Position numbers and translations under genes: made by a program
Origin: a virus
Lineage: Duplodnaviria > Heunggongvirae > Uroviricota > Caudoviricetes
Direction: 5' to 3' (one strand)
DNA length: 18,167 bases
IMG/VR virus record: IMGVR_UViG_2740892039_000008
Shown: positions 1 through 18,167 of the stretch, one piece after another
Numbering within the stretch: the first letter of the stretch is position 1
Layout: each line of letters starts with the position of its first letter
The notes under the pieces: generated by a model
What the model saw: only the letters and a program-made list of their open reading frames with translations
Databases searched by the model: none
What the model was told of the DNA's origin: nothing

Positions 1-189
1 AACGGTTCTGTGAAAGTGACACGAACCGATCTCCATCGATGTTACTCACCGATCTCCTTCACGGTAATACGCAAGGTGGAAGGCGCGCTACATGTGAAGA
101 ATATCCCGGAACCTCCGCCGCCGGAGCCGGTTACCCGCCCGATGGAGCTGTATATCAATGGCGAACTGGTGAGCAAGTGGGATGAATGA
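1..189 (+). CDS. R: Tail completion protein R, C-terminal fragment (5' end outside window)
   Basis: Open frame from position 1 with no stop until TGA at 187-189 (..PMELYINGELVSKWDE*). Overlaps the S start (ATG 182) in the ATGA/TGA arrangement typical of P2 R/S. Identity inferred from synteny. Confidence 0.65.
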   Translation, partial: NGSVKVTRTDLHRCYSPISFTVIRKVEGALHVKNIPEPPPPEPVTRPMELYINGELVSKWDE

Positions 190-634
190 GTTTAAGCGTT
201 TTGAAGACCGGCTGACCGGACTGACTGAATCGCTGTCACCGTCAGGGCGTCGGCGACTGAGCGCCGAACTGGCGAAACGTCTGCGTCAGAGTCAGCAGCG
301 TCGGGTGATGGCACAGAAAGCCCCGGACGGCACACCCTACGTGCCACGCCAGCAGCAGAGCGCCAGAAAAAAGACCGGTCGTGTTAAGCGAAAAATGTTT
401 GCGAAACTTATCACCAGTCGTTTTTTGCATATCCGCGCCAGCCCGGAACAGGCATCAATGGAGTTTTACGGCGGGAAGTCGCCGAAAATTGCCAGTGTGC
501 ATCAGTTCGGTCTGTCGGAAGAAACCCGGAAAGACGGTAAGAAAACTGATTATCCGGCGCGTCCTCTGCTCGGCTTTACCGGTGAGGATGTGCAGATGAT
601 TGAAGAGATTATCCTGGCTCACCTTGAGCGTTAG
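182..634 (+). CDS. S: Tail completion / virion morphogenesis protein S
   Basis: 150-aa ORF, the same length as P2 gpS, basic N-terminal half, directly downstream of and overlapping R. Position and length match P2. Confidence 0.85.
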   Translation: MNEFKRFEDRLTGLTESLSPSGRRRLSAELAKRLRQSQQRRVMAQKAPDGTPYVPRQQQSARKKTGRVKRKMFAKLITSRFLHIRASPEQASMEFYGGKSPKIASVHQFGLSEETRKDGKKTDYPARPLLGFTGEDVQMIEEIILAHLER

Positions 635-664
635 TTTTATCCAGGCAGAGGCTGATGCGCAATT

Positions 665-699
665 AAACATTGAGCGGCCGTGCTGGTCGCTCAATGTTT
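665..699. repeat. Perfect 12-bp inverted repeat (AAACATTGAGCG-N11-CGCTCAATGTTT) between the convergent S and cargo genes
   Basis: Read directly from the sequence at 665-676 and 688-699. No strong U-tract on either side, so a terminator role is uncertain. Could be a hairpin terminator for the convergent transcripts or the boundary of the inserted module. Confidence 0.4.
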
Positions 700-705
700 A
701 GAGGT

Positions 706-1491
706 TTATGAGTGGTTTTTATTTGATGCTTTGTATTCTAAAACCTTCTTATTGGCGTAAAGGAATTTTGTGTATGACAGGAATATAAATAGACCTGAAA
801 TGAAATAGATTAGGGATATTATTAATAATGTTTTTCTGTGGCTGTTATTATCTTTAATCTCCTGACTTAACCATTCGGAGTCCTCCTCGTTTAGCTGTAA
901 GAGCTTATTGCAGGCGATTGCAGGAAGTGTGTCTGTTACAAAAGTGTTCTGCAGTCTCTTGCAATCGGCAATGCTAAAAGCTTTATAGAACTTATCTGTT
1001 TTATTGTCGGAGAACAAAAGAACCTTGTCATTATAAACATGGTACATCATATTTTTATATGGTATGGCTATGGCATCCTCTACTATGGCAGATTGCTCGT
1101 TGTGTATGCAACATGCGAAGATAATATAAAGAATTCCGGCCAGGACTGCACTCATTGTTTTTGTGATGCATGGCGGTTCTGTTATGTCTCCCCAGAAGCG
1201 AGTAAGGAAAAAATCCGATGTTTTTAGTTTTCCATCAATCAGCCCCTGCTGTATCATTCTCACATCTTCGATGCCTGATACATTGATTCCGTTAAGTATT
1301 TTAAATAGTTGAATGTCGCGCCACTCGCGGTCCAGTCTTTTTAATTTTTTGTCTGAATATCCAAATTTGAAATAATGTGCAATAAGCCTCATAAGGTTAC
1401 TTTTACCAAAGCTAAAAAATGCTAATACTGCAAAGACCAAAAGATACAAAACGATTAGCTCCCACACATTAGTCACATTATAGCTGACCAT
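706..1491 (-). CDS. Hypothetical cargo (moron) membrane protein, 261 aa, three predicted transmembrane helices; function unknown
   Basis: ATG at 1489-1491 (minus) preceded by AAGGAG with a 6-nt spacer. Visibly AT-rich versus flanking phage genes (GC not computed). Opposite orientation to the late operon. Hydrophobic segments at about aa 10-29, 114-131 and 224-244. Occupies the S/V variable locus (orf30 position in P2). Confidence 0.75.
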   Translation of the reverse strand: MVSYNVTNVWELIVLYLLVFAVLAFFSFGKSNLMRLIAHYFKFGYSDKKLKRLDREWRDIQLFKILNGINVSGIEDVRMIQQGLIDGKLKTSDFFLTRFWGDITEPPCITKTMSAVLAGILYIIFACCIHNEQSAIVEDAIAIPYKNMMYHVYNDKVLLFSDNKTDKFYKAFSIADCKRLQNTFVTDTLPAIACNKLLQLNEEDSEWLSQEIKDNNSHRKTLLIISLIYFISGLFIFLSYTKFLYANKKVLEYKASNKNHS

Positions 1492-1574
1492 TACGCTCTC
1501 CTTGAATGTTGTCTGGTGGTTCTACAAATGAATCCAGATAGCATAACTTTTATATATTGTGCAATCTCACATGC
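1492..1574 (+). promoter_or_regulatory. Divergent intergenic region: candidate P2 late promoter (PV-like) with an imperfect Ogr-type box, plus the promoter region of the minus-strand cargo gene
   Basis: ATGTTGTCTGGTGGTTCTACAA at 1506-1527 resembles the TGT-N12-ACA activator site of P2 late promoters, but spacing is N11 for an exact ACA. Location upstream of V fits PV. Weak, by eye. Confidence 0.3.
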
Positions 1575-2210
1575 ATGGACACTCTCGCAAATATTCAGGA
1601 ACTCGCGCGCGCACTGCGCAACATGATTCGTACCGGCATTATCGTTGAAACCGACCTTAACGCCGGTCGCTGCCGTGTGCAGACCGGCGGCATGTGCACC
1701 GACTGGCTTCAGTGGCTGACCCATCGCGCCGGACGTTCGCGCACATGGTGGGCACCTTCCGTGGGGGAACAGGTGCTGATTCTGGCCGTGGGCGGTGAAC
1801 TCGACACGGCGTTCGTTCTGCCGGGGATTTATTCCGGCGATAACCCTGCGCCGTCTGCGTCGGCGGATGCCCTGCATATCCGTTTCCCTGACGGGGCGGT
1901 GATTGAGTATGAACCCGAAACCAGTGCGCTTACGGTAAGCGGAATTAAAACGGCCAGCGTGACGGCTTCTGATTCTGTTACTGCCACGGTGCCGGTGGTC
2001 ATGGTGAAAGCATCAACCCGCATCACTCTGGACACGCCGGAGGTGGTCTGCACAAACAAGCTGATCACCGGCACGCTGGAAGTGCAGAAGGGCGGGACGA
2101 TGCGCGGCAACATTGAACACACCGGCGGTGAACTCTCATCAAACGGTAAGGTACTGCATACCCATAAACACCCCGGCGACAGCGGCGGCACAACCGGGAG
2201 TCCTTTATGA
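1575..2210 (+). CDS. V: Baseplate assembly / spike protein V
   Basis: ORF-track frame 1557-2210. I chose the internal ATG at 1575 (MDTLANIQELARALRNM..), giving 211 aa, the P2 gpV length. The track ORF begins at a GTG six codons upstream. TGA overlaps the W start. Confidence 0.85.
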   Translation: MDTLANIQELARALRNMIRTGIIVETDLNAGRCRVQTGGMCTDWLQWLTHRAGRSRTWWAPSVGEQVLILAVGGELDTAFVLPGIYSGDNPAPSASADALHIRFPDGAVIEYEPETSALTVSGIKTASVTASDSVTATVPVVMVKASTRITLDTPEVVCTNKLITGTLEVQKGGTMRGNIEHTGGELSSNGKVLHTHKHPGDSGGTTGSPL

Positions 2211-4000: not shown

Positions 4001-6619
4001 ATGAGCACGAAATTTAAAACCGTTATCACTACTGCCGGAGCCGCGAAGCTGGCAGCCGCTACTGTTCCCGGCGGGAAAAAAGTAAACCTGTCTGCAATGG
4101 CTGTGGGTGACGGTAATGGCCAATTGCCGGTGCCGGATGCCGGTCAGACGAAACTGGTGCATGAAGTCTGGCGTCACGCTCTGAATAAAGTCAGTGTGGA
4201 TAACAAGAATAAAAACTATATCGTGGCTGAACTGGTTGTTCCGCCAGAAGTGGGCGGCTTCTGGATGCGTGAGCTTGGTCTGTATGATGATGCCGGAACA
4301 CTGATTGCGGTATCCAACATGGCAGAAAGCTATAAGCCAGAACTGGCTGAAGGCTCCGGACGTGCGCAGACCTGCCGCATGGTTATTATTCTCAGTAACG
4401 TGGCGTCCGTTGAGCTGAGTATTGATGCCAGCACAGTGATGGCGACGCAGGATTACGTCGATGACAAAATCGCAGAGCATGAGCAGTCCCGCCGCCATCC
4501 TGACGCCACGCTGACAGAGAAAGGTTTTACTCAGTTAAGCAGTGCAACAAACAGCACCAGTGAGTCACTGGCGGCAACGCCAAAAGCGGTCAAGGCTGCG
4601 AATGACAACGCAAATTCACGTCTGGCGAAAAATCAGAACGGTGCAGATATCCAGGATAAATCAGCTTTTCTGGACAATGTTGGCGTTACCAGCCTGACGT
4701 TTATGAAAAACAATGGCGAAATGCCGGTTGATGCTGATCTGAATACGTTTGGTCCTGTTAAGGCTTATTCAGGTATCTGGTCTAAAGCAACATCCACCAA
4801 CGCAACACTGGAGAAAAATTTCCCGGAAGATAATGCTGTCGGTGTGCTTGAGGTTTTTGCTGCCGGCAATTTTGCAGGTACGCAACGCTTTACCACAAGA
4901 GACGGCAATGTATACATGCGTAAACTCGCCAATAAGTGGAATGGCACTGATGGTCCGTGGGGCGTATGGCGTCACACTCAATCAGCGACCCGCCCTTTGA
5001 GTACGACTATAGACCTGAATACGCTTGGAGCCGCCGAGCATCTTGGTTTATGGCGTAACAGTAGCTCGGCTATAGCTTCATATGAACGCAATTATCCAGA
5101 GGAAGGCGGCTTTGCTCAGGGGACGCTTGAGATCCTCGAAGGCGGGAATTATGGAAGAACGCAACGTTATACCACTCGCCGTGGAAATATGTACGTCCGC
5201 TGCCTTGCGGCAAGCTGGGATGCATCAAATCCGCAGTGGGAACCGTGGTTAAGAGTTGGTCATCAGTCAGAGAGTCGTTATTACGACGGGGATTTGAATG
5301 ATGTGACTTCACCAGGTATTTACAGCGTTACAGGTAAAGCGACCAACGGTCCAATACTGGACGGAAACGGCGTGACAGTCCTCGGTATTCTGGAAGTGTT
5401 GAGGCGCTTTGATGGTGTTAACGTATGGCAGCGTTATACAACTGCCGGAACAGGTGCAACCCTTAAAGGTCGCACGTTTGAGCGCGTCTATACCGGCAGC
5501 TCGTGGAGCGAATGGCGGGAAGTCTACACCTCGTATTCACTTCCCCTGAATCTGGGTATCGGCGGTGCAGTGGCAAAGCTCACCAGCCTGGACTGGCAGA
5601 CCCACGACTTTGTGCCGGGCAGTCTGATAACCGTTCGGCTTGATAACATGACCAACATTCCCGACGGTATGGACTGGGGCGTCATTGATGGCAACCTGAT
5701 AAACATCGCAGTTGGTCCGAGTGATGATTCCGGTACGGGGCGCTCAATGCATGTATGGCGCAGCACTGTAAGTAAAGCGAATTACCGCTTTTTTATGGTG
5801 CGTATTTCAGGAAATCCGGGAAGCCGCACGATCACGACAAGACGTGTGCCAATTATCGACGAAGCTCAGACATGGGCGGCGAAACAGACATTCAGCGGTG
5901 GTCTTTCAGGCGAACTGTCCGGCAATGCGGCTACAGCAACAAAGCTGAAAACGGCAAGGACAATTAACGGCGTGAAATTTGACGGCTCGGCAAATATTGA
6001 AGTATTTCCGCCAGGTGTTCCGCTGCCATGGCCATCAGATACACCGCCTGCAGGCTATGCAATCATGCAGGGACAGACGTTTGATAAGGCAGCATATCCG
6101 AAACTGGCTATTGCCTATCCTTCTGGTGTTATTCCAGATATGCGCGGCTGGACAATCAAGGGCAAACCCGCCAGTGGGCGTGCCGTATTGTCACAGGAAC
6201 AGGACGGGATTAAATCGCATACTCACAGCGCCAGTGCGTCAAATACGGACTTAGGAACGAAAACGACCAGTTCATTTGATTACGGGACAAAAACAGTCAG
6301 TACGTTTAACCACGGCACAAAATCAACCAATACTTCTGGCAATCATACACATACCGTCGGTTTTGCTGTGAGCGTGCAATCAGGCGGTGCAGATTATGGT
6401 GTTCCGCGAAGTGATAAAGGTGCTACGACTACAAGTTCATCAGGCAATCATGCACATACAGTCGACATTGGAGCACATAACCATACTGTTGGTATTGGTG
6501 CACATTCACACACTGTTGCTATTGGCTCACACGGGCATTCCATTACCGTAAATGCTACTGGCAATACCGAAAACACCGTCAAAAACATCGCATTTAACTA
6601 TATTGTGAGGCTTGCATAA
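4001..6619 (+). CDS. H: Tail fibre protein H, mosaic: conserved P2-like N-terminus, three internal ~50-aa repeats, His-rich HxH C-terminal tip
   Basis: 872 aa (P2 gpH is about 669 aa by recall). N-terminus [20 protein letters not shown].. is a P2-H-type baseplate-attachment region. C-terminus carries repeated GNHTHTV / [27 protein letters not shown] motifs and a ..NYIVRLA end typical of Tfa-dependent fibres. Confidence 0.9.
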
Positions 6620-7197
6620 TGGCTTTCAGAATGAGTGCAGAAGCACAAACTATCCGCGTTTTCAATTTACTTGATGGAACCAATGAGTTTATTGGCGAAA
6701 GTGATGCATATATTCCGCCGTATACTGGCCTGCCTGCAAACAGTACAGATATTGCACCACCTGATATTCCTGCTGGTTATGCAGCCGTTTTCAATGCAGA
6801 TGAAATGAAATGGGAGTTGATGGAAGATCATCGCGGAAAGACTGTCTACGAAACGAAAACGGGAGCAGCCATTTATATTTCTGAACTTGGCGCATTACCT
6901 CCAGACGTGACAGCCATTTCCCCGGAGGGGGATTATCAGAAATGGAACGGAAATGCGTGGGTGAATGATGAGAATGCAGAGCGTGATGCACTTGTCAGAG
7001 CGGCTGAGTCTCAGAAGAAAGAGCAGATTGCATATGCAGGTGAAATCATTGCCATGCTGCAGGATGCTGTCGATTTAGATATGGCTACCGAGGAAGAAAA
7101 GTTAAGCCTGACACACTGGAAAAAATACCGTGTGCTACTTAATCGCGTTCAGCCGGAAAATGCTCCGGATATAGAATGGCCTGAAATGCCGCAATAA
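6619..7197 (+). CDS. G: Tail fibre assembly protein (chaperone), G position
   Basis: 192 aa. ATG overlaps the H stop (TAATG). C-terminal ..[27 protein letters not shown] resembles the conserved Tfa C-terminal region. Position equals P2 G. Longer than P2 gpG (175 aa by recall), consistent with a swapped H-tip/G module. Confidence 0.8.
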
Positions 7198-7282: not shown

Positions 7283-7495
7283 GTGATGCATATCTGTCAC
7301 CAAATTTAATGTGCCACTACAAACAGAGTATATAGTTGAATATTATAGTGCACCCCGGCCTCATGAATATAACGGTGGATTACCGCCGAACGAGTCGGAA
7401 AATAGATACTGGAAAAACTCTAAAATCGAGGCCAGTTTTTGTTGTTCTCTACAATAATAATCGGATTTTCCCATGACAAGTTTAATAGTATTTAG

Positions 7496-8605
7496 GTGCC
7501 TGAAGTGAAGTTGAAGAAGCTATTGATGAAAGTTGTGAAAGTGGTAAAGGAGCAGGTTCTAAGTACCGTTATTTCGGGAATAATAGGCATAGCGGCTACA
7601 GTAGGGCTTTTCCATTTCACTTCACAGCCAATACGATCTGCTGATGTTCGCGAAAAATTAGTTGAAATGGCTCGGGAGTGCATCCAGCAGCAGCTTGCCA
7701 CACATTTGGACTCAGTGGCGTTTGACTCAGTGGCTAGCGAGTCTCTCGATCTAAGCACCTCAAACTCCGTTGTAGTCTACGGAAGAACTGTGAGCACAAA
7801 TGGTGCCCTTAGCCGTTTCCTGATGGTCTTCGAGCCCTCTGGACAGAGTTTGATAGATAAGGTGGTTGGCAGACCTGGATTCTACGATATTGGGTATTGG
7901 GCAATCATCCCAGACGCAGGGGACGACGAGGTTGTGGCTTCTTCAGTAAACATTGAAGACCTCGACAAAGATGGTAACAAGGACATACTAGTCCGCTTAA
8001 AGTCAACTTACGCGGATGGTGTATCCAAAGGGCTTCTTATACTTAAAAAGGATATCCATGATGTATGGCATTTGATGGGGCTTCCATCAATGACAGAGAT
8101 CATGCATTCCATTGCTGCAGGTCAGCCTCCCCAGCCGGAAGGTCTTCACCTTCCACTTCCGGCAATACAATGGTTTAGTAATGACGAAAAACTCAAACCA
8201 AAGTCTGATATCAAACAATATCTTAATTGGGAAATTGACGAAGATAACTTGCAGGTCGCTGATTCCACTGGAAATCATTCTTTTTGGATGTTCAGAAACG
8301 GCACCAAGATAAAAATGTTCGAGAATGGACAAGCCGGCTACAAGCACTTTGGTGTACTGGTCAACATCAATGATGAAGAGGCGATACAGGGAAGGCATCA
8401 TCTCATGGTCAGCTTTTTCAAGATAGAGAATAATAGTTTGGTTCCTGATCCGAATTGGAACTGGGCCTATCCCATGTTCTCTATCGGATTAGAGGATAGC
8501 CAAGAAGTTGAATTAAGTGACATGCAGGAAGCGGGCTTACAAGCTCATGTTTCTGGTAGCTCCGTTTTCGGCCTGACAGAGTTTGGGAAAATGGACTCAG
8601 ATTAA
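7496..8605 (+). CDS. Hypothetical cargo protein at the G/FI (Z/fun) variable locus; 369 aa, N-terminal basic segment plus one predicted transmembrane helix, large C-terminal domain with a DxDxDG-like motif; function unknown
   Basis: GTG start at 7496 (alternative ATG at 7526 preceded by AAGAAG). Hydrophobic helix at about aa 21-41 (VLSTVISGIIGIAATVGLFHF). Motif IEDLDKDGNKD. Visibly lower GC than neighbouring tail genes. Followed by a strong terminator. Confidence 0.7.
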   Translation: MPEVKLKKLLMKVVKVVKEQVLSTVISGIIGIAATVGLFHFTSQPIRSADVREKLVEMARECIQQQLATHLDSVAFDSVASESLDLSTSNSVVVYGRTVSTNGALSRFLMVFEPSGQSLIDKVVGRPGFYDIGYWAIIPDAGDDEVVASSVNIEDLDKDGNKDILVRLKSTYADGVSKGLLILKKDIHDVWHLMGLPSMTEIMHSIAAGQPPQPEGLHLPLPAIQWFSNDEKLKPKSDIKQYLNWEIDEDNLQVADSTGNHSFWMFRNGTKIKMFENGQAGYKHFGVLVNINDEEAIQGRHHLMVSFFKIENNSLVPDPNWNWAYPMFSIGLEDSQEVELSDMQEAGLQAHVSGSSVFGLTEFGKMDSD

Positions 8606-8916
8606 TATTCGCTAACCTTACCAACGAAGAGCAGGTCACAGGTATGGCCTAATTATGTTTTCAGAGGAGTCAGGGCTCAAGAATGCCCCCAGATAAGCCG
8701 TAAATCCTGTAGCGCAAAATCGTCTCAGATGACGCAGAGATATTAAAAACGCCTCAACCTGTTCATCAATTAATTGATAGGTTGAACTGTTAGTTAAACT
8801 TTCACCAGCAGAAAGGTATGAACTTTTTCGACTCGCTCAAAGCTGGCTGTCAGAGCTGATAGCGTTTTGGCTACGTAAATTGTCAGTTGGAAACTGAGCG
8901 AGTACAAATCAGGACG

Positions 8917-8945
8917 GGCGGGCTGATTGCCCGCCTTTTCTTTAT
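8917..8945 (+). terminator. Rho-independent terminator closing the cargo transcription unit
   Basis: GGCGGGC (8917-8923), loop TGATT, GCCCGCC (8929-8935), then TTTTCTTTAT. Confidence 0.6.
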
Positions 8946-8946
8946 C

Positions 8947-9039
8947 TGTTGTTTCATCCACTGACCAGCCAGGTCAAATAGCGTCTCATGCACTGCCCAA
9001 CAGAAAATAGTTGCACCCATTAACCACGGAGTTAAACGG
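8947..9039 (+). promoter_or_regulatory. Candidate P2 late promoter PF with an Ogr-type box, upstream of FI
   Basis: TGTTGTTTCATCCACTGACCA at 8947-8967 (TGT-N12-CCA, one mismatch to TGT-N12-ACA), roughly 55 bp upstream of a plausible start site near 9010-9015. Shares the TGTTGT half-site with the box upstream of V. Confidence 0.35.
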
Positions 9040-10230
9040 ATGAGCGACTATCATCATGGCGTGCAGGTGCTGGAGATTAACGACGGCACCCGCGTCATTT
9101 CCACCGTATCCACCGCCATTGTCGGCATGGTCTGCACGGCCAGCGATGCGGATGCGGAAACCTTCCCCCTCAATAAACCGGTGCTGATTACCAATGTGCA
9201 GAGCGCGATTGCAAAGGCCGGTAAAAAAGGCACGCTGGCGGCATCGTTGCAGGCTATCGCCGACCAGTCAAAACCGGTCACCGTTGTCGTGCGTGTGGAA
9301 GACGGCACCGGCGACGACGAGGAAACGAAACTCGCGCAGACCGTTTCCAATATCATCGGCACCACCGACGAAAACGGTCAGTACACCGGACTGAAAGCCC
9401 TGCTGGCGGCGGAGTCGGTAACTGGTGTTAAACCGCGTATTCTCGGCGTGCCGGGACTGGACACCAAAGAGGTGGCTGTTGCACTGGCATCAGTCTGTCA
9501 GAAGCTGCGTGCTTTCGGGTATATCAGCGCATGGGGATGTAAGACCATTTCCGAGGTGAAAGCCTACCGCCAGAATTTCAGCCAGCGTGAGCTGATGGTC
9601 ATCTGGCCGGATTTCCTCGCATGGGATACGGTCACCAGTACCACCGCCACCGCGTATGCCACCGCCCGTGCGCTGGGTCTGCGCGCTAAAATCGACCAGG
9701 AGCAGGGCTGGCATAAAACGCTGTCCAACGTTGGGGTGAACGGTGTTACCGGCATCAGCGCCTCTGTATTCTGGGATTTGCAGGAGTCCGGCACCGATGC
9801 TGACCTGCTTAACGAGTCAGGCGTCACAACGCTGATTCGCCGCGACGGTTTCCGCTTCTGGGGTAACCGTACCTGCTCCGATGACCCGCTGTTCCTCTTT
9901 GAAAACTACACCCGCACCGCGCAGGTGCTGGCCGACACGATGGCTGAGGCGCACATGTGGGCGGTGGATAAGCCCATCACCGCAACGCTGATTCGCGACA
10001 TCGTTGACGGCATTAATGCCAAATTCCGTGAGCTGAAAACAAACGGCTATATCGTGGATGCGACCTGCTGGTTCAGCGAAGAATCCAACGATGCGGAAAC
10101 CCTCAAGGCCGGAAAACTGTATATCGACTACGACTATACCCCGGTGCCTCCTCTTGAAAACCTGACCCTGCGCCAGCGTATTACCGATAAATACCTGGCA
10201 AATCTGGTCACCTCGGTTAACAGCAATTAA
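9040..10230 (+). CDS. FI: Contractile tail sheath protein FI
   Basis: 396 aa, as in P2 gpFI. GGAG Shine-Dalgarno. Followed 12 nt later by FII. Confidence 0.9.
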   Translation: MSDYHHGVQVLEINDGTRVISTVSTAIVGMVCTASDADAETFPLNKPVLITNVQSAIAKAGKKGTLAASLQAIADQSKPVTVVVRVEDGTGDDEETKLAQTVSNIIGTTDENGQYTGLKALLAAESVTGVKPRILGVPGLDTKEVAVALASVCQKLRAFGYISAWGCKTISEVKAYRQNFSQRELMVIWPDFLAWDTVTSTTATAYATARALGLRAKIDQEQGWHKTLSNVGVNGVTGISASVFWDLQESGTDADLLNESGVTTLIRRDGFRFWGNRTCSDDPLFLFENYTRTAQVLADTMAEAHMWAVDKPITATLIRDIVDGINAKFRELKTNGYIVDATCWFSEESNDAETLKAGKLYIDYDYTPVPPLENLTLRQRITDKYLANLVTSVNSN

Positions 10231-10242
10231 GGAGCCTGACCG

Positions 10243-10761
10243 ATGGCAATGCCGCGCAAACTCAAGTTAATGAACGTCTTTCTGAACGGCTACAGCTATC
10301 AGGGCGTTGCAAAGTCCGTCACGCTGCCAAAACTGACCCGTAAGCTCGAAAACTATCGCGGTGCGGGGATGAACGGCAGCGCACCGGTAGACCTCGGCCT
10401 TGATGACGATGCGCTGTCAATGGAGTGGTCGCTCGGGGGCTTCCCGGATTCGGTTATCTGGGAGCTTTACGCCGCAACCGGTGTGGATGCCGTGCCGATT
10501 CGTTTTGCAGGCTCTTACCAGCGCGACGATACCGGCGAAACGGTGGCCGTCGAGGTGGTCATGCGTGGCCGTCAGAAAGAAATCGACACCGGCGAGGGGA
10601 AACAGGGAGAAGACACTGAGTCGAAAATCTCCGTGGTCTGCACCTATTTCCGGCTGACGATGGACGGTAAGGAGCTGGTCGAAATCGACACCATCAACAT
10701 GATTGAGAAGGTGAACGGCGTCGACCGACTGGAGCAACACCGCCGCAATATCGGCCTGTGA
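10243..10761 (+). CDS. FII: Tail tube protein FII
   Basis: 172 aa, as in P2 gpFII. AAGGAG Shine-Dalgarno 7 nt upstream. Confidence 0.9.
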   Translation: MAMPRKLKLMNVFLNGYSYQGVAKSVTLPKLTRKLENYRGAGMNGSAPVDLGLDDDALSMEWSLGGFPDSVIWELYAATGVDAVPIRFAGSYQRDDTGETVAVEVVMRGRQKEIDTGEGKQGEDTESKISVVCTYFRLTMDGKELVEIDTINMIEKVNGVDRLEQHRRNIGL

Positions 10762-15423: not shown

Positions 15424-15642
15424 ATGTTTCATTGTCCTTTATGCCAGCATGCCGCACATGCGCGTACAAGCCGCTATATCACTGACACGACAAAAGAGCG
15501 TTATCATCAGTGCCAGAACGTGAATTGTAGTGCCACGTTCATCACTTATGAGTCGGTACAGCGATACATCGTGAAGCCGGGAGAAGTCCACGCCGTAAGG
15601 CCGCACCCGTTGCCGTCAGGGCAGCAAATTATGTGGATGTAA
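15424..15642 (+). CDS. ogr: Ogr, Cys4 zinc-finger late-gene transcriptional activator
   Basis: 72-aa product MFHCPLCQHAAHARTSRYITDTTKERYHQCQNVNCSATF.. with a CxxC-N22-CxxxxC zinc finger. GGAAGAGG Shine-Dalgarno before ATG 15424. The ORF-track start at 15361 is a TTG extension. Confidence 0.85.
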   Translation: MFHCPLCQHAAHARTSRYITDTTKERYHQCQNVNCSATFITYESVQRYIVKPGEVHAVRPHPLPSGQQIMWM

Positions 15643-15654
15643 TTACAAACAGGA

Positions 15655-15680
15655 AGCCCCTCAGTCGAGGGGCTTTTTTG
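15655..15680 (+). terminator. Rho-independent terminator after ogr
   Basis: AGCCCCTC-AGTC-GAGGGGCT followed by TTTTTTG. Confidence 0.65.
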
Positions 15681-15743
15681 TCGATGTGGTCAATGTGTGG
15701 ACGTGACCAGAAATAAATCCTTTTATTTCATTGTATTACGCGT

Positions 15744-15770
15744 AAAAAATAAGCCCGTGTAAGGGACTAT
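15744..15770. other. attR core of the P2-like prophage (phage/host junction)
   Basis: AAAAAATAAGCCCGTGTAAGGGACTAT. The first 23 nt match the P2 att core as I recall it (AAAAAATAAGCCCGTGTAAGGGAGATT); the last 4 nt differ, as expected for the bacterial side of a secondary site. Lies immediately after ogr, where attR is expected. Confidence 0.5.
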
Positions 15771-15818
15771 TTTGCAGCGGCACAGCGTTCAGACAGTTAT
15801 TTTTTTAAATGTATTAAC

Positions 15819-18167
15819 ATGCTGAGTTTATACGAAAAGATAAAGATAAGGCTGATAATTTTATTTTTATTGGCAGCATTGTCATTTATTGGTCTTTTTT
15901 TCATCATTAACTATCAACTGGTATCGGAACGCGCGGTAAAACGTGCCGATAGCCGCTTTGAACTTATTCAGAAAAACGTTGGCTATTTCTTTAAAGATAT
16001 TGAACGTTCGGCCCTGACATTAAAGGACTCACTGTATTTATTAAAAAATACAGAGGAGATTCAACGTGCCGTGATTCTGAAAATGGAAATGATGCCATTT
16101 TTAGACTCGGTGGGACTGGTACTTGATGATAATAAATATTATCTCTTTTCGCGGAGGGCGAATGATAAAATCGTTGTTTATCATCAGGAACAAGTAAATG
16201 GACCGCTTGTCGACGAGTCAGGGCGGGTTATTTTTGCCGATTTTAACCCATCGAAACGACCGTGGTCGATGGCTTCAGATGACTCTAACAACAGCTGGAA
16301 CCCGGCATACAATTGCTTTGATCGTCCGGGTAAAAAATGTATCTCTTTTACGCTACACATCAACGGCAAAGATCATGATTTGTTAGCGGTAGATAAAATT
16401 CATGTCGATTTAAACTGGCGATATCTGAACGAGTATCTTGATCACATCAGCGCTAATGATGAAGTTCTATTTTTAAAGCAAGGTCATGAGATCATTGCTA
16501 AGAATCAACTCGCTCGTGAAAAATTGATTATTTATAATAGCGAAGGTAATTATAATATTATTGATTCTGTCGATACGGAATATATTGAAAAAACATCAGC
16601 GGTGCCAAACAACGCATTATTCGAAATCTATTTTTATTATCCTGGTGGTAATTTATTGAACGCATCAGATAAACTTTTTTATCTGCCGTTTGCTTTCATT
16701 ATTATCGTATTGCTGGTGGTTTATTTAATGACCACTCGAGTTTTCCGTCGTCAATTTTCTGAAATGACAGATTTGGTCAATACGCTGGCGTTTTTGCCTG
16801 ACTCTACGGATCAAATCGAGGCCCTGAAGATTCGTGAAGGCGATGCGAAAGAGATTATCAGCATCAAAAATTCGATCGCGGAAATGAAAGATGCTGAAAT
16901 TGAACGGGCAAATAAATTGCTCTCGCTGATCTCTTACGATCAGGAAAGCGGTTTTATTAAAAATATGGCGATTATTGAGTCCAACAATAATCAGTATCTG
17001 GCTGTGGGGATCATCAAACTGTGTGGTCTGGAAGCTGTGGAAGCGGTGTTTGGTGTTGATGAACGCAATAAAATCGTCAGGAAATTGTGTCAGCGAATTG
17101 CCGAGAAATATGCGCAATGCTGCGATATCGTGACATTTAATGCCGATCTCTATTTACTCCTGTGCCGGGAAAATGTACAGACGTTTACCCGTAAGATAGC
17201 GACGGTAAACGATTTTGACAGCAGTTTTGGCTACCGCAATCTGCGCATCCATAAGTCTGCTATTTGTGAACCTTTGCAGGGGGAAAACGCCTGGAGTTAC
17301 GCAGAAAAGCTGAAACTGGCGATTTCCAGTATCCGCAACCATATGTTCTCAGAGTTTATTTTCTGTGATGATGCGAAACTCAACGAAATAGAAGAGAATA
17401 TCTGGATTGCGCGTAATATTCGCCATGCAATGGAAATTGGCGAACTATTCCTGGTCTATCAACCGATTGTTGATATTAACACCCGCACCATTTTGGGCGC
17501 GGAGGCGTTGTGCCGTTGGGTGTCTGCGGAGCGGGGGATTATTTCACCGCTGAAGTTCATTACCATTGCTGAAGATATCGGGTTTATCAATGAGCTGGGC
17601 TATCAAATTATTAAAACCGCGATGGGTGAATTCAGACATTTTAGTCAGCGTGCGTCGCTGAAGGATGATTTCTTACTGCATATTAATGTTTCGCCCTGGC
17701 AGTTAAACGAACCACACTTTCATGAGCGTTTTACTACCATCATGAAAGAAAATGGCCTGAAGGCGAACAGCCTTTGTGTTGAGATCACCGAAACCGTGAT
17801 CGAGCGAATTAATGAACATTTCTATCTCAATATTGAACAACTGCGTAAACAAGGGGTACGGGTATCGATTGATGACTTTGGCACCGGTTTGTCAAACCTG
17901 AAACGTTTTTATGAAATTAATCCAGACAGTATAAAGGTGGATTCGCAATTTACCGGCGATATTTTCGGTACTGCGGGAAAAATTGTGCGCATTATTTTCG
18001 ATCTGGCACGCTATAACCGGATCCCGGTGATTGCGGAAGGCGTAGAGAGCGAAGACGTTGCGCGTGAATTAATCAAATTAGGATGTGTTCAGGCTCAGGG
18101 GTATCTGTACCAGAAACCCATGCCATTCTCCGCCTGGGATAAAAGTGGAAAATTAGTAAAAGAGTAG
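15819..18167 (+). CDS. pdeI: Host membrane-bound c-di-GMP phosphodiesterase (two TM helices, periplasmic domain, degenerate GGDEF-like region, C-terminal EAL domain); probably PdeI (YliE)
   Basis: 782 aa, the length I recall for E. coli PdeI/YliE. TM helices at about aa 10-30 and 285-305. EAL signature GAEALCRW and DDFGTG motif in the C-terminal domain. Lower-GC, host-like codon usage. Gene symbol from recall, not a search. Confidence 0.6.
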   Translation: MLSLYEKIKIRLIILFLLAALSFIGLFFIINYQLVSERAVKRADSRFELIQKNVGYFFKDIERSALTLKDSLYLLKNTEEIQRAVILKMEMMPFLDSVGLVLDDNKYYLFSRRANDKIVVYHQEQVNGPLVDESGRVIFADFNPSKRPWSMASDDSNNSWNPAYNCFDRPGKKCISFTLHINGKDHDLLAVDKIHVDLNWRYLNEYLDHISANDEVLFLKQGHEIIAKNQLAREKLIIYNSEGNYNIIDSVDTEYIEKTSAVPNNALFEIYFYYPGGNLLNASDKLFYLPFAFIIIVLLVVYLMTTRVFRRQFSEMTDLVNTLAFLPDSTDQIEALKIREGDAKEIISIKNSIAEMKDAEIERANKLLSLISYDQESGFIKNMAIIESNNNQYLAVGIIKLCGLEAVEAVFGVDERNKIVRKLCQRIAEKYAQCCDIVTFNADLYLLLCRENVQTFTRKIATVNDFDSSFGYRNLRIHKSAICEPLQGENAWSYAEKLKLAISSIRNHMFSEFIFCDDAKLNEIEENIWIARNIRHAMEIGELFLVYQPIVDINTRTILGAEALCRWVSAERGIISPLKFITIAEDIGFINELGYQIIKTAMGEFRHFSQRASLKDDFLLHINVSPWQLNEPHFHERFTTIMKENGLKANSLCVEITETVIERINEHFYLNIEQLRKQGVRVSIDDFGTGLSNLKRFYEINPDSIKVDSQFTGDIFGTAGKIVRIIFDLARYNRIPVIAEGVESEDVARELIKLGCVQAQGYLYQKPMPFSAWDKSGKLVKE

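What the first reader, a model, noticed from the sequence alone, without database searches (positions are those of the whole stretch)
635..1574. Minus-strand AT-rich cargo gene at the S/V hotspot encoding a 261-aa three-helix membrane protein
This is the only gene in the phage segment on the opposite strand. It has a strong AAGGAG Shine-Dalgarno, is visibly AT-rich relative to S and V, and is bounded on the S side by a perfect 12-bp inverted repeat. It sits in the second classical P2 variable locus (orf30 position). The product has three predicted TM helices separating two ~85-90-aa soluble segments, with no motif I recognise. Small polytopic membrane proteins at phage variable loci often act as abortive-infection or exclusion factors, but that is inference from context only.
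Basis: partly seen in the sequence, partly recalled or inferred. Interest (0 to 1): 0.75.

Follow-up and report, generated by a model that had tools for sequence, protein, structure and literature searches.

The report
Phage P2 orf30 membrane-protein gene
This is the long-known but never-explained gene orf30 of bacteriophage P2. It is a real, conserved gene for a three-helix inner-membrane protein that P2-type prophages carry next to their tail-spike gene, and its function is still untested, so it is neither a new cargo gene nor a recognised defence gene.

Summary
A 261-aa minus-strand ORF (706-1491) lies between P2 genes S and V. It has an AAGGAG ribosome-binding site, about 37% GC against 55-62% in the flanks, and three TM helices separating 84- and 90-aa loops. 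The inverted repeat at 664-700 is also present.

It is not an unknown cargo gene. It is the ortholog of P2 orf30 (81% aa identity, colinear), which the P2 record annotates as 'nonessential'. The inverted repeat is P2's annotated O-operon terminator. P2's annotated activator site for the V-operon late promoter (P_V) lies just upstream of the orf30 start.

New here:
- Orf30 belongs to an Enterobacterales-only family (PHROG 2407, a remote and mostly sub-threshold relative of Pfam DUF6216).
- Members at 17-38% identity still lie in the S-V interval, on the strand opposite V, in Yersinia, Pectobacterium, Enterobacter, Cronobacter and Gibbsiella P2-like prophages.
- Copies persist in decayed prophage remnants.
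- The inferred topology is N-terminus outside, a conserved cytoplasmic helical loop, and a periplasmic alpha/beta loop with two near-invariant cysteines.
- Nine phage alleles are all intact (dN/dS 0.47, against 0.08 and 0.12 for S and V).
- Nothing matched in PADLOC, Pfam, the PDB or the fold libraries.

Function is unknown. My best guess is a prophage-expressed, envelope-level exclusion or protection factor (about 0.35). Novelty: already known. Interest: low to moderate.

The parts
706..1491 (-). orf30 ortholog: 261-aa three-TM inner-membrane protein of the PHROG 2407 family
   Evidence: ORF and translation. It is 81% aa identical to P2 Orf30 over its full length (E 5e-130). It matches PHROG 2407 at E 2.6e-137 over 1-261/261. 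RefSeq calls the identical CDS WP_001599798.1, a hypothetical protein, in E. coli 4/0. dN/dS is 0.47 and all 9 alleles are intact.
1497..1502 (-). Shine-Dalgarno sequence AAGGAG, 6 nt upstream of the orf30 ATG
   Evidence: Read directly from the sequence.
664..700 (.). Stem-loop between the convergent genes S and orf30. It corresponds to P2's annotated 'putative rho-independent terminator for O operon' and is a candidate bidirectional terminator.
   Evidence: Inverted repeat I1. The P2 annotation at 9397-9433 maps colinearly to 664-700. Fold energies are -26.7 and -22.3 kcal/mol with z -4.6 and -3.7. It lies in the least variable stretch of the region (pi 0.002-0.016 in the sliding windows spanning 569-703). 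There is no clean U-tract on the orf30 side.
1506..1533 (+). Ogr-type activator binding site of the late promoter P_V, mapped from the P2 annotation. It lies 15-42 bp upstream of the orf30 start codon, so any orf30 transcript must start beyond it and read through it.
   Evidence: P2 misc_feature 10239-10266 maps colinearly. An ACCAC..ACAAC element recurs just upstream of the homolog's start in remote loci. That orf30 transcription must cross this site is inference.
1492..1574 (.). 83-bp divergent intergenic region between orf30 and V. It contains P_V. The orf30 promoter has not been located.
   Evidence: pi is 0.023 among 9 alleles, against 0.082 within orf30. No sigma70-like site scoring >=9/12 was found on the minus strand.
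182..634 (+). Gene S (tail completion / virion morphogenesis), left flank of the locus
   Evidence: P2 annotation and RefSeq annotation. dN/dS 0.08.
1575..2210 (+). Gene V (baseplate spike), right flank, transcribed divergently from orf30
   Evidence: P2 annotation and RefSeq annotation. dN/dS 0.12.

Best explanation
**Identity (near certain, about 0.97).** This is the ortholog of bacteriophage P2 orf30. It is a non-essential, AT-rich accessory gene transcribed against the late operons, between the O-operon terminator and the P_V late promoter.

**The protein.** It is a polytopic inner-membrane protein with this inferred layout:
- a short N-terminus in the periplasm;
- TM1;
- an ~84-aa helical cytoplasmic loop, the most conserved part of the family (motif D-x-Q-L-F-[KR]-x3-G-[IV]-N-V ... 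D-A ... G);
- TM2;
- a ~90-aa periplasmic alpha/beta loop with two near-invariant cysteines (C177, C194), probably disulfide-bonded;
- TM3;
- a lysine-rich cytoplasmic tail.

It acts alone, because no partner gene is conserved next to it.

**Mechanism (inferred, about 0.35).** I propose that it is a lysogenic-conversion factor made by the prophage. It would act at the inner membrane to protect the lysogen from an external agent. The most likely form is superinfection exclusion, blocking genome entry of particular heterologous phages. Protection against a related envelope-piercing agent is also possible. In this model the variable periplasmic loop supplies specificity, the conserved cytoplasmic loop contacts a conserved host or membrane component, and the poorly conserved TM helices serve only as anchors.

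**Shown here:** gene identity, family, conserved position, architecture, purifying selection, and retention in prophage remnants.

**Inferred:** topology, expression in the lysogen, and any exclusion activity.
For: **Identity.**
- tblastn gives 81% identity to P2 Orf30 over 261/261 aa.
- Nine loci, including P2 itself, are colinear over about 2.3 kb without indels.
- The P2 record annotates orf30 as 'nonessential', flanked by the terminator and the P_V activator site.

**Family.**
- It matches PHROG 2407 over its full length.
- An exhaustive profile search found 42 cluster representatives, many of them full-length at 250-270 aa.
- All 26 aligned members hit PHROG 2407.
- All named members come from Enterobacterales.

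**Conserved position.** Homologs at 17-38% identity lie in the S-V interval, on the strand opposite V, in:
- an Enterobacter MAG;
- Yersinia;
- Pectobacterium;
- a JGI metagenome contig;
- Cronobacter;
- Gibbsiella;
- a decayed remnant.

In these loci V is 61-85% identical while Orf30 is 22-38%.

**Selected as a protein.** All 9 alleles are intact. dN/dS is 0.31-0.35 in the two soluble loops and about 1.2 in TM1 and TM3.

**Benefit to the host independent of the phage.** Single copies persist without phage genes:
- in E. cloacae between yegQ and yegS, the slot where the identical E. coli 4/0 prophage sits;
- in Pantoea ARC270;
- in Enterobacter chromosomes.

**Topology.** The three-TM plan is kept across the family. 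The N-terminal segment has 0-2 K/R, the C-terminal tail is K/R-rich, and loop 2 carries exactly two Cys in nearly all full-length members.

**Structure.** The AF2 model built on the 26-sequence alignment has pLDDT 83.7 and pTM 0.72. Loop 1 is helical and loop 2 has four strands plus helices.

**Locus context.** Other occupants of the S-V interval include RelA_SpoT, AAA and AAA+TIR proteins that match PADLOC candidate families.

**Analogy.** P22 sieA is likewise an opposite-strand gene placed directly after the DNA-ejection genes (SieA being a membrane protein is from my own knowledge). HK97 gp15 is annotated as a moron product inside the tail operon.
Against: - No experiment bears on function.
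- There are no hits in PADLOC, Pfam or NCBIfam for this protein.
- hhalign finds no homology to P22 SieA, P22 SieB or HK97 gp15 (probability <=1%).
- No sigma70-type promoter was found for orf30, so expression in the lysogen is assumed.
- The classical exclusion phenotypes of P2 lysogens are attributed to old, tin and Z/fun, not to orf30 (10.1101/2024.10.15.618418, for the loci; the lambda, T-even and T5 targets are from my own knowledge).
- E. coli C lysogens of four P2-like phages were tested on 8 phages. Only AC1 was reported as protective, and the cloned TIR locus reproduced that phenotype. AC1, DC1 and SIAC10 all carry orf30 (PMC9122126).
- P2 Hy dis grows on P2 lysogens (my own knowledge of classical P2 genetics), so exclusion of P2-type injection is unlikely.
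- Within E. coli, the periplasmic loop shows no excess of amino-acid change (dN/dS 0.31).
- About 70% of close relatives have an empty S-V junction, so the gene is dispensable.
Confidence: 0.35

Rival explanations
1. Abortive-infection or membrane-effector reading. Orf30 would sense infection through its cytoplasmic loop and then permeabilise or depolarise the inner membrane through its three TM helices, killing the cell before phage release.
For: It is a single-gene polytopic membrane protein at a prophage locus where other occupants look like abortive-infection-type proteins (RelA_SpoT matching PDC-S33, AAA+TIR matching PDC-S59). Membrane proteins are believed to act as suicide effectors in several known systems (discussion in PMC9122126). 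The cytoplasmic loop is well conserved and could act as a sensor.
Confidence: 0.15
2. Non-antiviral lysogenic conversion. Orf30 would change host envelope physiology for the host's benefit. Possibilities include orphan immunity to a membrane-targeting bacteriocin or T6SS/CDI toxin, altered transport or signalling, or stress or colonisation fitness, with no direct action on phages.
For: Copies are retained as lone chromosomal genes after prophage decay. One such copy is widespread in E. cloacae (cluster seen on 60-96 contigs). There is no match to known defence models and no reported phage phenotype in lysogens. The family is restricted to Enterobacterales, consistent with a partner specific to that clade. 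Alleles evolve quickly and are mosaic, as is typical of immunity genes in general.
Against: No toxin or effector gene is linked in any context examined. The protein has no resemblance to known immunity families beyond chance-level hits (Colicin-K immunity E 0.11 in one member). Pore-forming colicin immunity proteins are much smaller, with short loops (my own knowledge).
Confidence: 0.25
3. Phage lytic-cycle accessory. Orf30 would help P2 itself under some conditions, for example in lysis timing, in protecting infected cells from lysis-from-without, or in membrane-associated tail or baseplate assembly. It would be dispensable only in the laboratory.
For: It has kept its position beside spike gene V, with P_V in the shared intergenic region, across P2-like phages whose Orf30 proteins are only ~20-38% identical. 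It lies a few genes downstream of the lysis cassette.
Against: It is on the strand opposite all late operons, and no late (TGT-N12-ACA) site is placed to drive it. The P_V site is centred only ~28 bp from the orf30 ATG. P2's record calls it nonessential. About 70% of close relatives lack it, with a 66-bp S-V junction, and isolated, plaque-forming phages are among those lacking it. It survives in remnants that have lost the phage genes.
Confidence: 0.1
4. Decaying or non-functional ORF: a horizontally acquired AT-rich remnant that is merely tolerated.
For: It is non-essential, often absent, has no identified promoter, and has a higher dN/dS than its neighbours.
Against: All 9 alleles are intact and free of indels. 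dN/dS is 0.31-0.35 in the soluble loops. Length, three-TM plan, Cys pair and motifs are conserved down to 17% identity in six genera. A 261-codon open frame at 37% GC is very unlikely by chance.
Confidence: 0.03

Closest known systems
Bacteriophage P2 Orf30 (AAD03281.1; AF063097 9439-10224) and PHROG 2407
   Same: It is the same gene. It shows 81% aa identity over 261/261 residues, with the same length, strand, flanking genes S and V, terminator hairpin and P_V activator site. It is AT-rich, and the P2 record annotates it as non-essential.
   Different: It is an allelic variant. Differences cluster in TM1, TM2 and residues ~150-190 of the periplasmic loop. The window allele is closest to the alleles in Yersinia-plated Peduoviruses (96%) and is identical in the stretch compared to E. 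coli 4/0. Alleles are mosaic: P0002/L018 combine a window-type N-terminal half with a P2-type periplasmic loop.
Pfam DUF6216 (PF19723), uncharacterised integral membrane proteins
   Same: The profile has the same length (270 positions). Remote Orf30-family members align colinearly over nearly its whole length. One member passes the curated threshold (P0024, 28.9 vs 27.3 bits, residues 10-255 on profile 10-265), and 10 of 26 members give hits at E <= 1.
   Different: The window protein itself gives no hit even at E <= 10. The link is transitive and mostly sub-threshold. DUF6216 has no known function and no literature beyond one incidental mention.
Prophage superinfection-exclusion membrane proteins (P22 SieA, HK97 gp15)
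   Same: Genomic logic: a small, stand-alone gene embedded in or beside the virion, tail or ejection gene block. P22 sieA is likewise opposite-strand, directly after ejection genes 7, 20 and 16, and has its own annotated promoter. HK97 gp15 is annotated as a moron product, with a putative terminator just downstream.
   Different: There is no detectable homology (hhalign probability <=1%). Orf30 is larger (261 aa against 164 and 62 aa) and has two folded ~85-90-aa loops. No exclusion phenotype has been shown for it.
P2 accessory loci old/tin and Z/fun (defence hotspots of P2-like phages)
   Same: They are AT-rich, non-essential, horizontally acquired loci of P2. The orf30 locus is the third classical variable region (PMC3091744). 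Here the S-V interval is shown to hold defence-like alternatives.
   Different: The old/tin and Z/fun loci are described as defence hotspots, and old and tin were cloned for testing by Rousset et al.. Orf30 has no assigned phenotype. Recent hotspot surveys describe the old/tin and Z/fun hotspots and do not name orf30. The S-V interval is mostly empty (about 70%). When it is occupied, it is dominated by one conserved family rather than by a diverse cargo pool.

Membership tests
P2 Orf30 / PHROG 2407 | Full-length sequence similarity to P2 Orf30 and to the PHROG 2407 profile | tested here: met
   tblastn gives 81% identity over 261/261 aa, E 5e-130. PHROG 2407 matches at E 2.6e-137 over 1-261 of 261.
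P2 Orf30 / PHROG 2407 | Located between tail-completion gene S and baseplate-spike gene V, on the opposite strand | tested here: met
   S is at 182-634 (+), orf30 at 706-1491 (-) and V at 1575-2210 (+). Remote homologs in 5 other genera have the same arrangement.
P2 Orf30 / PHROG 2407 | Flanked by the O-operon terminator hairpin and the P_V activator site, as annotated in P2 | tested here: met
   Colinear mapping of the P2 features places them at 664-700 and 1506-1533, with no indels across 9 loci. The hairpin was verified.
P2 Orf30 / PHROG 2407 | Dispensable for phage growth | not testable with these tools
   The P2 record states 'nonessential'. Indirectly consistent: isolated phages with an empty S-V junction exist.
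Pfam DUF6216 (PF19723) | Whole-protein score at or above the gathering threshold (27.3 bits) | tested here: not met
   The window protein gives no Pfam hit at E <= 10. Among relatives, only P0024 passes (28.9 bits). Others score 12-24 bits but align in register. The relationship is remote and transitive.
Known anti-phage defence systems (PADLOC-DB v2.0.0) | Match to any defence-protein HMM | tested here: not met
   The window protein gives 0 families at E <= 10. Remote homologs also give none, apart from one chance-level Csx16 hit at E 0.003. Later databases were not available.
Superinfection-exclusion proteins (P22 SieA/SieB, HK97 gp15) | Sequence or profile homology | tested here: not met
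   hhalign probabilities are 0.3%, 0.2% and 1.0%. The only PHROG hits are families of unknown function.
Superinfection-exclusion proteins (functional class) | Expressed from the prophage and blocks genome entry of a superinfecting phage without blocking adsorption | not testable with these tools
   No expression or infection data exist. Indirect and negative: lysogens of orf30-carrying AC1, DC1 and SIAC10 showed no reported protection attributable to orf30 on an 8-phage panel (PMC9122126).
Abortive-infection membrane effectors / pore formers | Conserved membrane-spanning segments that form the lethal pore or channel | tested here: inconclusive
Phage lysis proteins (holin / antiholin / spanin) | Encoded in the late lysis cassette and co-transcribed with it | tested here: not met
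   It is on the opposite strand, outside the P2 lysis genes (K, lysA/B/C in the fetched stretch) and separated from them by R and S. No holin or spanin Pfam or PHROG match was found.

The most novel reading that the evidence does not exclude
The Orf30 family (PHROG 2407) would be a previously unrecognised single-protein system that protects the lysogen at the envelope. On this reading the P2 lineage has kept it beside its spike gene V across Enterobacterales. It has a fold with no solved relative. A disulfide-stabilised periplasmic domain would intercept an incoming phage's ejection machinery, or a tailocin-like puncturing device. The conserved cytoplasmic loop would engage a host membrane component. 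Its transcription would be wired head-on through the Ogr-activated P_V region, so that it is on in lysogeny and switched off in late lytic growth.
Probability: 0.25. Interest if true: 0.55.

Novelty: already known. Interest (0 to 1): 0.3.

Why it matters
On its own terms the finding re-discovers an annotated gene, so it does not reveal a new kind of element. It is still worth noting. Orf30 is one of the few genes of the model phage P2 with no assigned function, some thirty years after it was sequenced. The two other accessory loci of P2 proved to be rich sources of anti-phage systems.

This analysis turns 'an AT-rich hypothetical ORF' into a defined target:
- a conserved, Enterobacterales-wide family with a fixed position next to V;
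- a testable topology, with a periplasmic cysteine pair and a conserved cytoplasmic motif;
- natural presence/absence polymorphism, in which about 29% of E. coli genomes that match the S-V query carry it;
- domesticated chromosomal copies.

If it proves to be an exclusion or immunity factor, it would add a new single-gene, membrane-level mechanism and a third functional hotspot in P2-like phages. If it proves to have no phage-related role, it would be a reminder that guilt by location at prophage hotspots is weak evidence.

Tried and rejected
**Database scans.** Pfam, NCBIfam and PADLOC scans of the window protein gave no hits. A profile search of PDB sequences gave only chance hits (best E 0.18).

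**Structure.**
- The first AF2 model, built on a 5-sequence shallow alignment, was unusable (pLDDT 55.6). It was replaced by a 26-sequence model (pLDDT 83.7).
- The AFDB50 library was not available.

**Homolog searches.** The word-indexed homolog search found only close alleles. Only the exhaustive profile search reached remote relatives. The search for related loci with the diverse alignment failed because it had no conserved 7-10-column stretch. A narrower alignment gave 4 loci.

**Diversifying selection.** I rejected 'diversifying selection on the periplasmic loop', because dN/dS there is 0.31. The excess amino-acid change is in TM1 and TM3.

**Cargo model.** I rejected 'freshly swapped hotspot cargo' for orf30 itself, because remote homologs keep the same slot and orientation in other genera.

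**Promoter.** Looking for an orf30 promoter, the consensus scan and my own relaxed scan found nothing convincing, and nothing was conserved across lineages.

**Exclusion proteins.** Homology to P22 SieA and SieB and to HK97 gp15 was tested and rejected.

**Literature.** Searches for orf30, DUF6216 and PF19723 found only statements that orf30 is of unknown function and lies at a variable locus. I found no functional study.
Full report
**1.
- The window holds a 261-codon ATG-initiated ORF on the minus strand at 706-1491.
- AAGGAG lies 6 nt upstream of the ATG.
- GC falls to 0.35-0.41 across 601-1500, against 0.54-0.62 in the neighbouring genes.
- A 16-nt-arm inverted repeat at 664-679/685-700 (94% complementary, containing a perfect 12-mer) lies between this ORF and the upstream gene. 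It folds stably on either strand (-26.7 and -22.3 kcal/mol, z -4.6 and -3.7).
- Kyte-Doolittle analysis gives three hydrophobic segments (9-27, 112-130, 221-239) separating loops of 84 and 90 residues.
- One detail needs softening. RefSeq also calls a 55-aa minus-strand ORF in the Z/fun slot of the identical prophage (window 8794-8961).

**2. What it is: P2 orf30.**
- A megablast of 1-2400 hits 96 phage records. Twenty of them cover 74-2400 colinearly, including bacteriophage P2 itself at 94.5%.
- The protein is 81% identical over all 261 residues to P2 Orf30 (E 5e-130). It is 96% identical, over residues 1-253, to the allele in Peduoviruses isolated on Yersinia pestis.
- In the P2 GenBank record the gene is 'orf30, nonessential'. 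The hairpin is the 'putative rho-independent terminator for O operon'. The 'activator binding site; activation of pV promoter' lies between orf30 and V. Because nine loci align without a single indel, these map to window 664-700 and 1506-1533.
- The protein matches PHROG 2407 (function unknown) end to end at E 2.6e-137. It has no hit in Pfam, NCBIfam or PADLOC.
- The literature I could search describes orf30 only as being of unknown function and as one of three P2 regions (TO, Z, orf30) where P2-like phages carry foreign genes (PMC3091744; PMC6823313). Recent hotspot studies do not mention it.

**3. How common it is, and what else sits there.**
- In 5,426 complete E. coli genomes, 1,572 match the query (window 300-1900, spanning the S end, orf30 and the V start). 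Of these, 458 (29%) carry the full orf30 locus.
- Strain 4/0 is 100% identical over 300-1900.
- Most of the remaining matches shown in the spread listing have a 66-bp S-V junction whose sequence is unrelated to either intergenic region flanking orf30.
- In 78 IMG/VR contigs with V >=95% identical, the interval is empty in 55, holds orf30 in 17 and holds something else in 6.
- The 'something else' is AT-rich (GC 0.34-0.39) and partly defence-like:
  - a RelA_SpoT-domain protein (PF04607, 1.9e-21; PADLOC PDC-S33, 9.6e-17);
  - an AAA protein (PDC-S59, 1.5e-31);
  - an AAA+TIR_2 protein (PDC-S59, 1.5e-19);
  - two proteins with no matches.

**4. Orf30 is an old resident, not ordinary swappable cargo.**
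- The word-indexed search found only four close clusters. An exhaustive profile search of 1.84 billion representatives found 42 at E <= 1e-3, many of them full-length proteins of 250-270 aa. The 21 chosen for alignment are 17-33% identical to the window protein.
- All 26 aligned members hit PHROG 2407.
- Ten of the 26 give colinear hits to Pfam DUF6216, but only one passes the curated threshold.
- Named members come only from Enterobacterales: Escherichia, Enterobacter, Pantoea, Pectobacterium, Yersinia, Cronobacter and Gibbsiella (Pantoea).
- Seven remote homologs whose surroundings I fetched turned out to lie in the S-V interval of a P2-like prophage, opposite to V:
  - an Enterobacter MAG;
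  - Yersinia;
  - Pectobacterium;
  - a JGI metagenome contig;
  - Cronobacter;
  - Gibbsiella;
  - a decayed remnant with two tandem copies.
- In five of the seven the homolog starts about 80-130 bp from V. In the Cronobacter locus two other genes lie between V and the homolog.
- In these loci V is 61-85% identical to the window's V, while Orf30 is only 22-38%. Every homolog is AT-rich (GC 0.32-0.40, against 0.54-0.62 for V).
- Extra genes (ORF6N, DUF4062, a DUF7480 pair, a 273-aa two-TM protein) are inserted beside it, mostly on the S side.
- A second location exists. In Pantoea S-LA4 a homolog follows the integrase of a P2/186-like prophage.
- Lone chromosomal copies also exist:
  - in Pantoea ARC270, beside a 79-aa ORF with no Pfam hit that may be an integrase remnant;
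  - in Enterobacter species;
  - in E. cloacae, between yegQ and yegS. This is the slot that the P2-like prophage of E. coli 4/0 occupies, with ogrK next to yegQ.
- I read these lone copies as genes left behind after prophage decay. That is inference.
- No neighbouring gene is shared across these contexts, so the protein works alone.

**5. The protein.**
- The three-TM plan, the loop lengths and the total length are kept throughout the family.
- The N-terminal segment carries 0-2 K/R and the C-terminal tail is K/R-rich.
- Loop 2 contains exactly two cysteines in nearly all full-length members. C194 is invariant and C177 is present in 95%.
- This points to N-terminus out, loop 1 in the cytoplasm, loop 2 in the periplasm with a disulfide, and C-terminus in. 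That topology is inference.
- With the 26-sequence alignment AlphaFold2 gives pLDDT 83.7 and pTM 0.72. Loop 1 is helical, loop 2 has four strands plus helices, and a long helix runs from residue 202 through TM3 to the C-terminus.
- No solved or viral predicted structure resembles the model.
- Across the family the cytoplasmic loop is the most conserved region (33% mean pairwise identity; motif around D59, Q61, G68, N70, V71, D76, G87). The periplasmic loop is at 23% and the TM helices at 14-21%.

**6. Selection.**
- Among nine phage alleles, nucleotide diversity in orf30 is 0.082. It is 0.028 in S, 0.034 in V and 0.023-0.026 in the two flanking intergenic regions.
- dN/dS is 0.47 for orf30, against 0.08 for S and 0.12 for V.
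- Within orf30, dN/dS is 0.35 in the cytoplasmic loop, 0.31 in the periplasmic loop, 0.67 in TM2 and about 1.2 in TM1 and TM3.
- The alleles are mosaic. Some combine a window-type N-terminal half with a P2-type periplasmic loop.
- The gene is therefore a selected, fast-evolving accessory gene. I found no signal of positive selection on the exposed loop.

**7. Regulation: mostly open.**
- No sigma70-like promoter was found on the orf30 strand, in the window or conserved across lineages.
- What is conserved is the P_V activator element, 10-50 bp upstream of the homolog's start codon in every lineage.
- Any orf30 transcript must therefore start within or beyond the P_V core promoter or the 5' end of V and read through that site.
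- This suggests, but does not show, that orf30 is expressed when late promoters are silent and is interfered with when Ogr fires P_V.

**8. Mechanism.**

I commit, at about 0.35, to a prophage-expressed envelope-level protection factor. The most likely form is superinfection exclusion at the inner membrane.

The reasons are all indirect:
- it is a stand-alone membrane protein;
- it has a folded, probably disulfide-bonded periplasmic domain, which a purely cytoplasmic sensor would not need;
- its TM helices look like anchors;
- it is retained in prophage remnants;
- its neighbours at the locus are defence-like;
- its genomic logic parallels P22 sieA and HK97 gp15.

The evidence against:
- it has no homology to those proteins;
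- no defence model matches it;
- the known exclusion phenotypes of P2 lysogens are attributed to old, tin and fun;
- Rousset et al. tested E. coli C lysogens of AC1, DC1, SIDE7 and SIAC10 on eight phages. Three of these phages carry orf30. They reported protection only for AC1, and the cloned TIR locus reproduced it (PMC9122126). I infer the negative result for the other lysogens from the text and did not see the data.
- P2 Hy dis grows on P2 lysogens (my own knowledge), so exclusion of P2-type entry is unlikely.

Rival readings and my estimates:
- non-antiviral lysogenic conversion or orphan immunity: 0.25;
- abortive-infection membrane effector: 0.15;
- lytic-cycle accessory: 0.10;
- non-functional ORF: 0.03.

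**9. Verdict.**
The locus and the protein architecture are right, and the defence role is untested.
- The feature is already known as P2 orf30.
- What is new is context rather than kind: the family's breadth, its fixed position beside V at ~20-38% identity, the inferred topology with a conserved cysteine pair, the chromosomal leftovers, and the defence-like alternatives at the same locus.
- Interest is 0.3. A P2 specialist would not be surprised, but the gene is now a well-defined experimental target.

Noticed in passing
window 7323-8961 (between G, which ends at 7197, and FI, which starts at 9040): The Z/fun slot of this prophage holds three things. There is an IS3-family transposase fragment (about 7323-7457, from the RefSeq annotation of the identical prophage). 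There is a 359-aa hypothetical protein (7526-8605, +) with no Pfam or PADLOC match. There is also a 55-aa minus-strand hypothetical ORF (8794-8961). The 359-aa protein is an uncharacterised occupant of a validated defence hotspot and may be a better novelty candidate than orf30.
   Followed up: partly
window 15424-18167: The prophage ends after ogr (15424-15642, Ogr_Delta zinc finger). A host gene for a CHASE9+EAL c-di-GMP phosphodiesterase follows from 15819 and runs to the end of the window (18167). In E. coli 4/0, whose prophage is 100% identical over 300-1900, ogrK abuts yegQ instead. Closely related prophages are therefore integrated at different chromosomal sites.
   Followed up: partly
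L088 2693-4000; L047 2274-4000; L087 2541-4000; L027/L058; L048; L004 738-1781: Alternative AT-rich cargo in the S-V interval of close P2 relatives: a 363-aa RelA_SpoT protein (PADLOC PDC-S33); a 508-aa AAA+TIR protein and a 414-aa AAA protein (both PDC-S59); a 251-aa Cys-rich protein; a 247-aa protein; and a 347-aa protein with a hydrophobic central region. The last three have no family match. Recent P2 hotspot surveys do not name this interval as a defence hotspot.
   Followed up: partly
L104 7001-7765 (E. cloacae); L008 8001-8777 (Pantoea ARC270); L014/L015 ~5956-6747: Orf30-family genes persist as lone chromosomal genes without phage neighbours. The E. cloacae copy lies between yegQ and yegS, a known P2-like integration slot, and its cluster is seen on 60-96 contigs. 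This suggests domestication after prophage loss.
   Followed up: partly
L114 4001-4771 and 4900-5658: Two tandem, divergent Orf30-family paralogs lie beside V in a decayed P2-like remnant. Only a J fragment, W and V remain there.
   Followed up: no
L013 6915-7736; L108 7800-9440; L112 2965-3899; L115 4877-6214: In other genera the S-V interval has grown by adding genes next to the Orf30 homolog: a 273-aa two-TM protein (Enterobacter), an ORF6N protein plus two small ORFs (Pectobacterium), a pair that includes DUF7480 (Cronobacter), and a 445-aa DUF4062 protein (Gibbsiella).
   Followed up: no
window 635-705 and 1492-1574, compared with L003 636-701: The 66-bp junction of 'empty' phages shares no sequence with either intergenic region flanking orf30, and there are no flanking direct repeats. 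The orf30 state therefore differs by a whole replaced module, consisting of the terminator, orf30 and the region carrying the P_V activator site. The last codons of S and the second codon of V also differ between the states.
   Followed up: partly
window 569-703: The end of S plus the terminator hairpin is the least variable stretch among the nine alleles (pi 0.002-0.016). It lies immediately next to orf30, the most variable gene in the region (pi 0.082).
   Followed up: no
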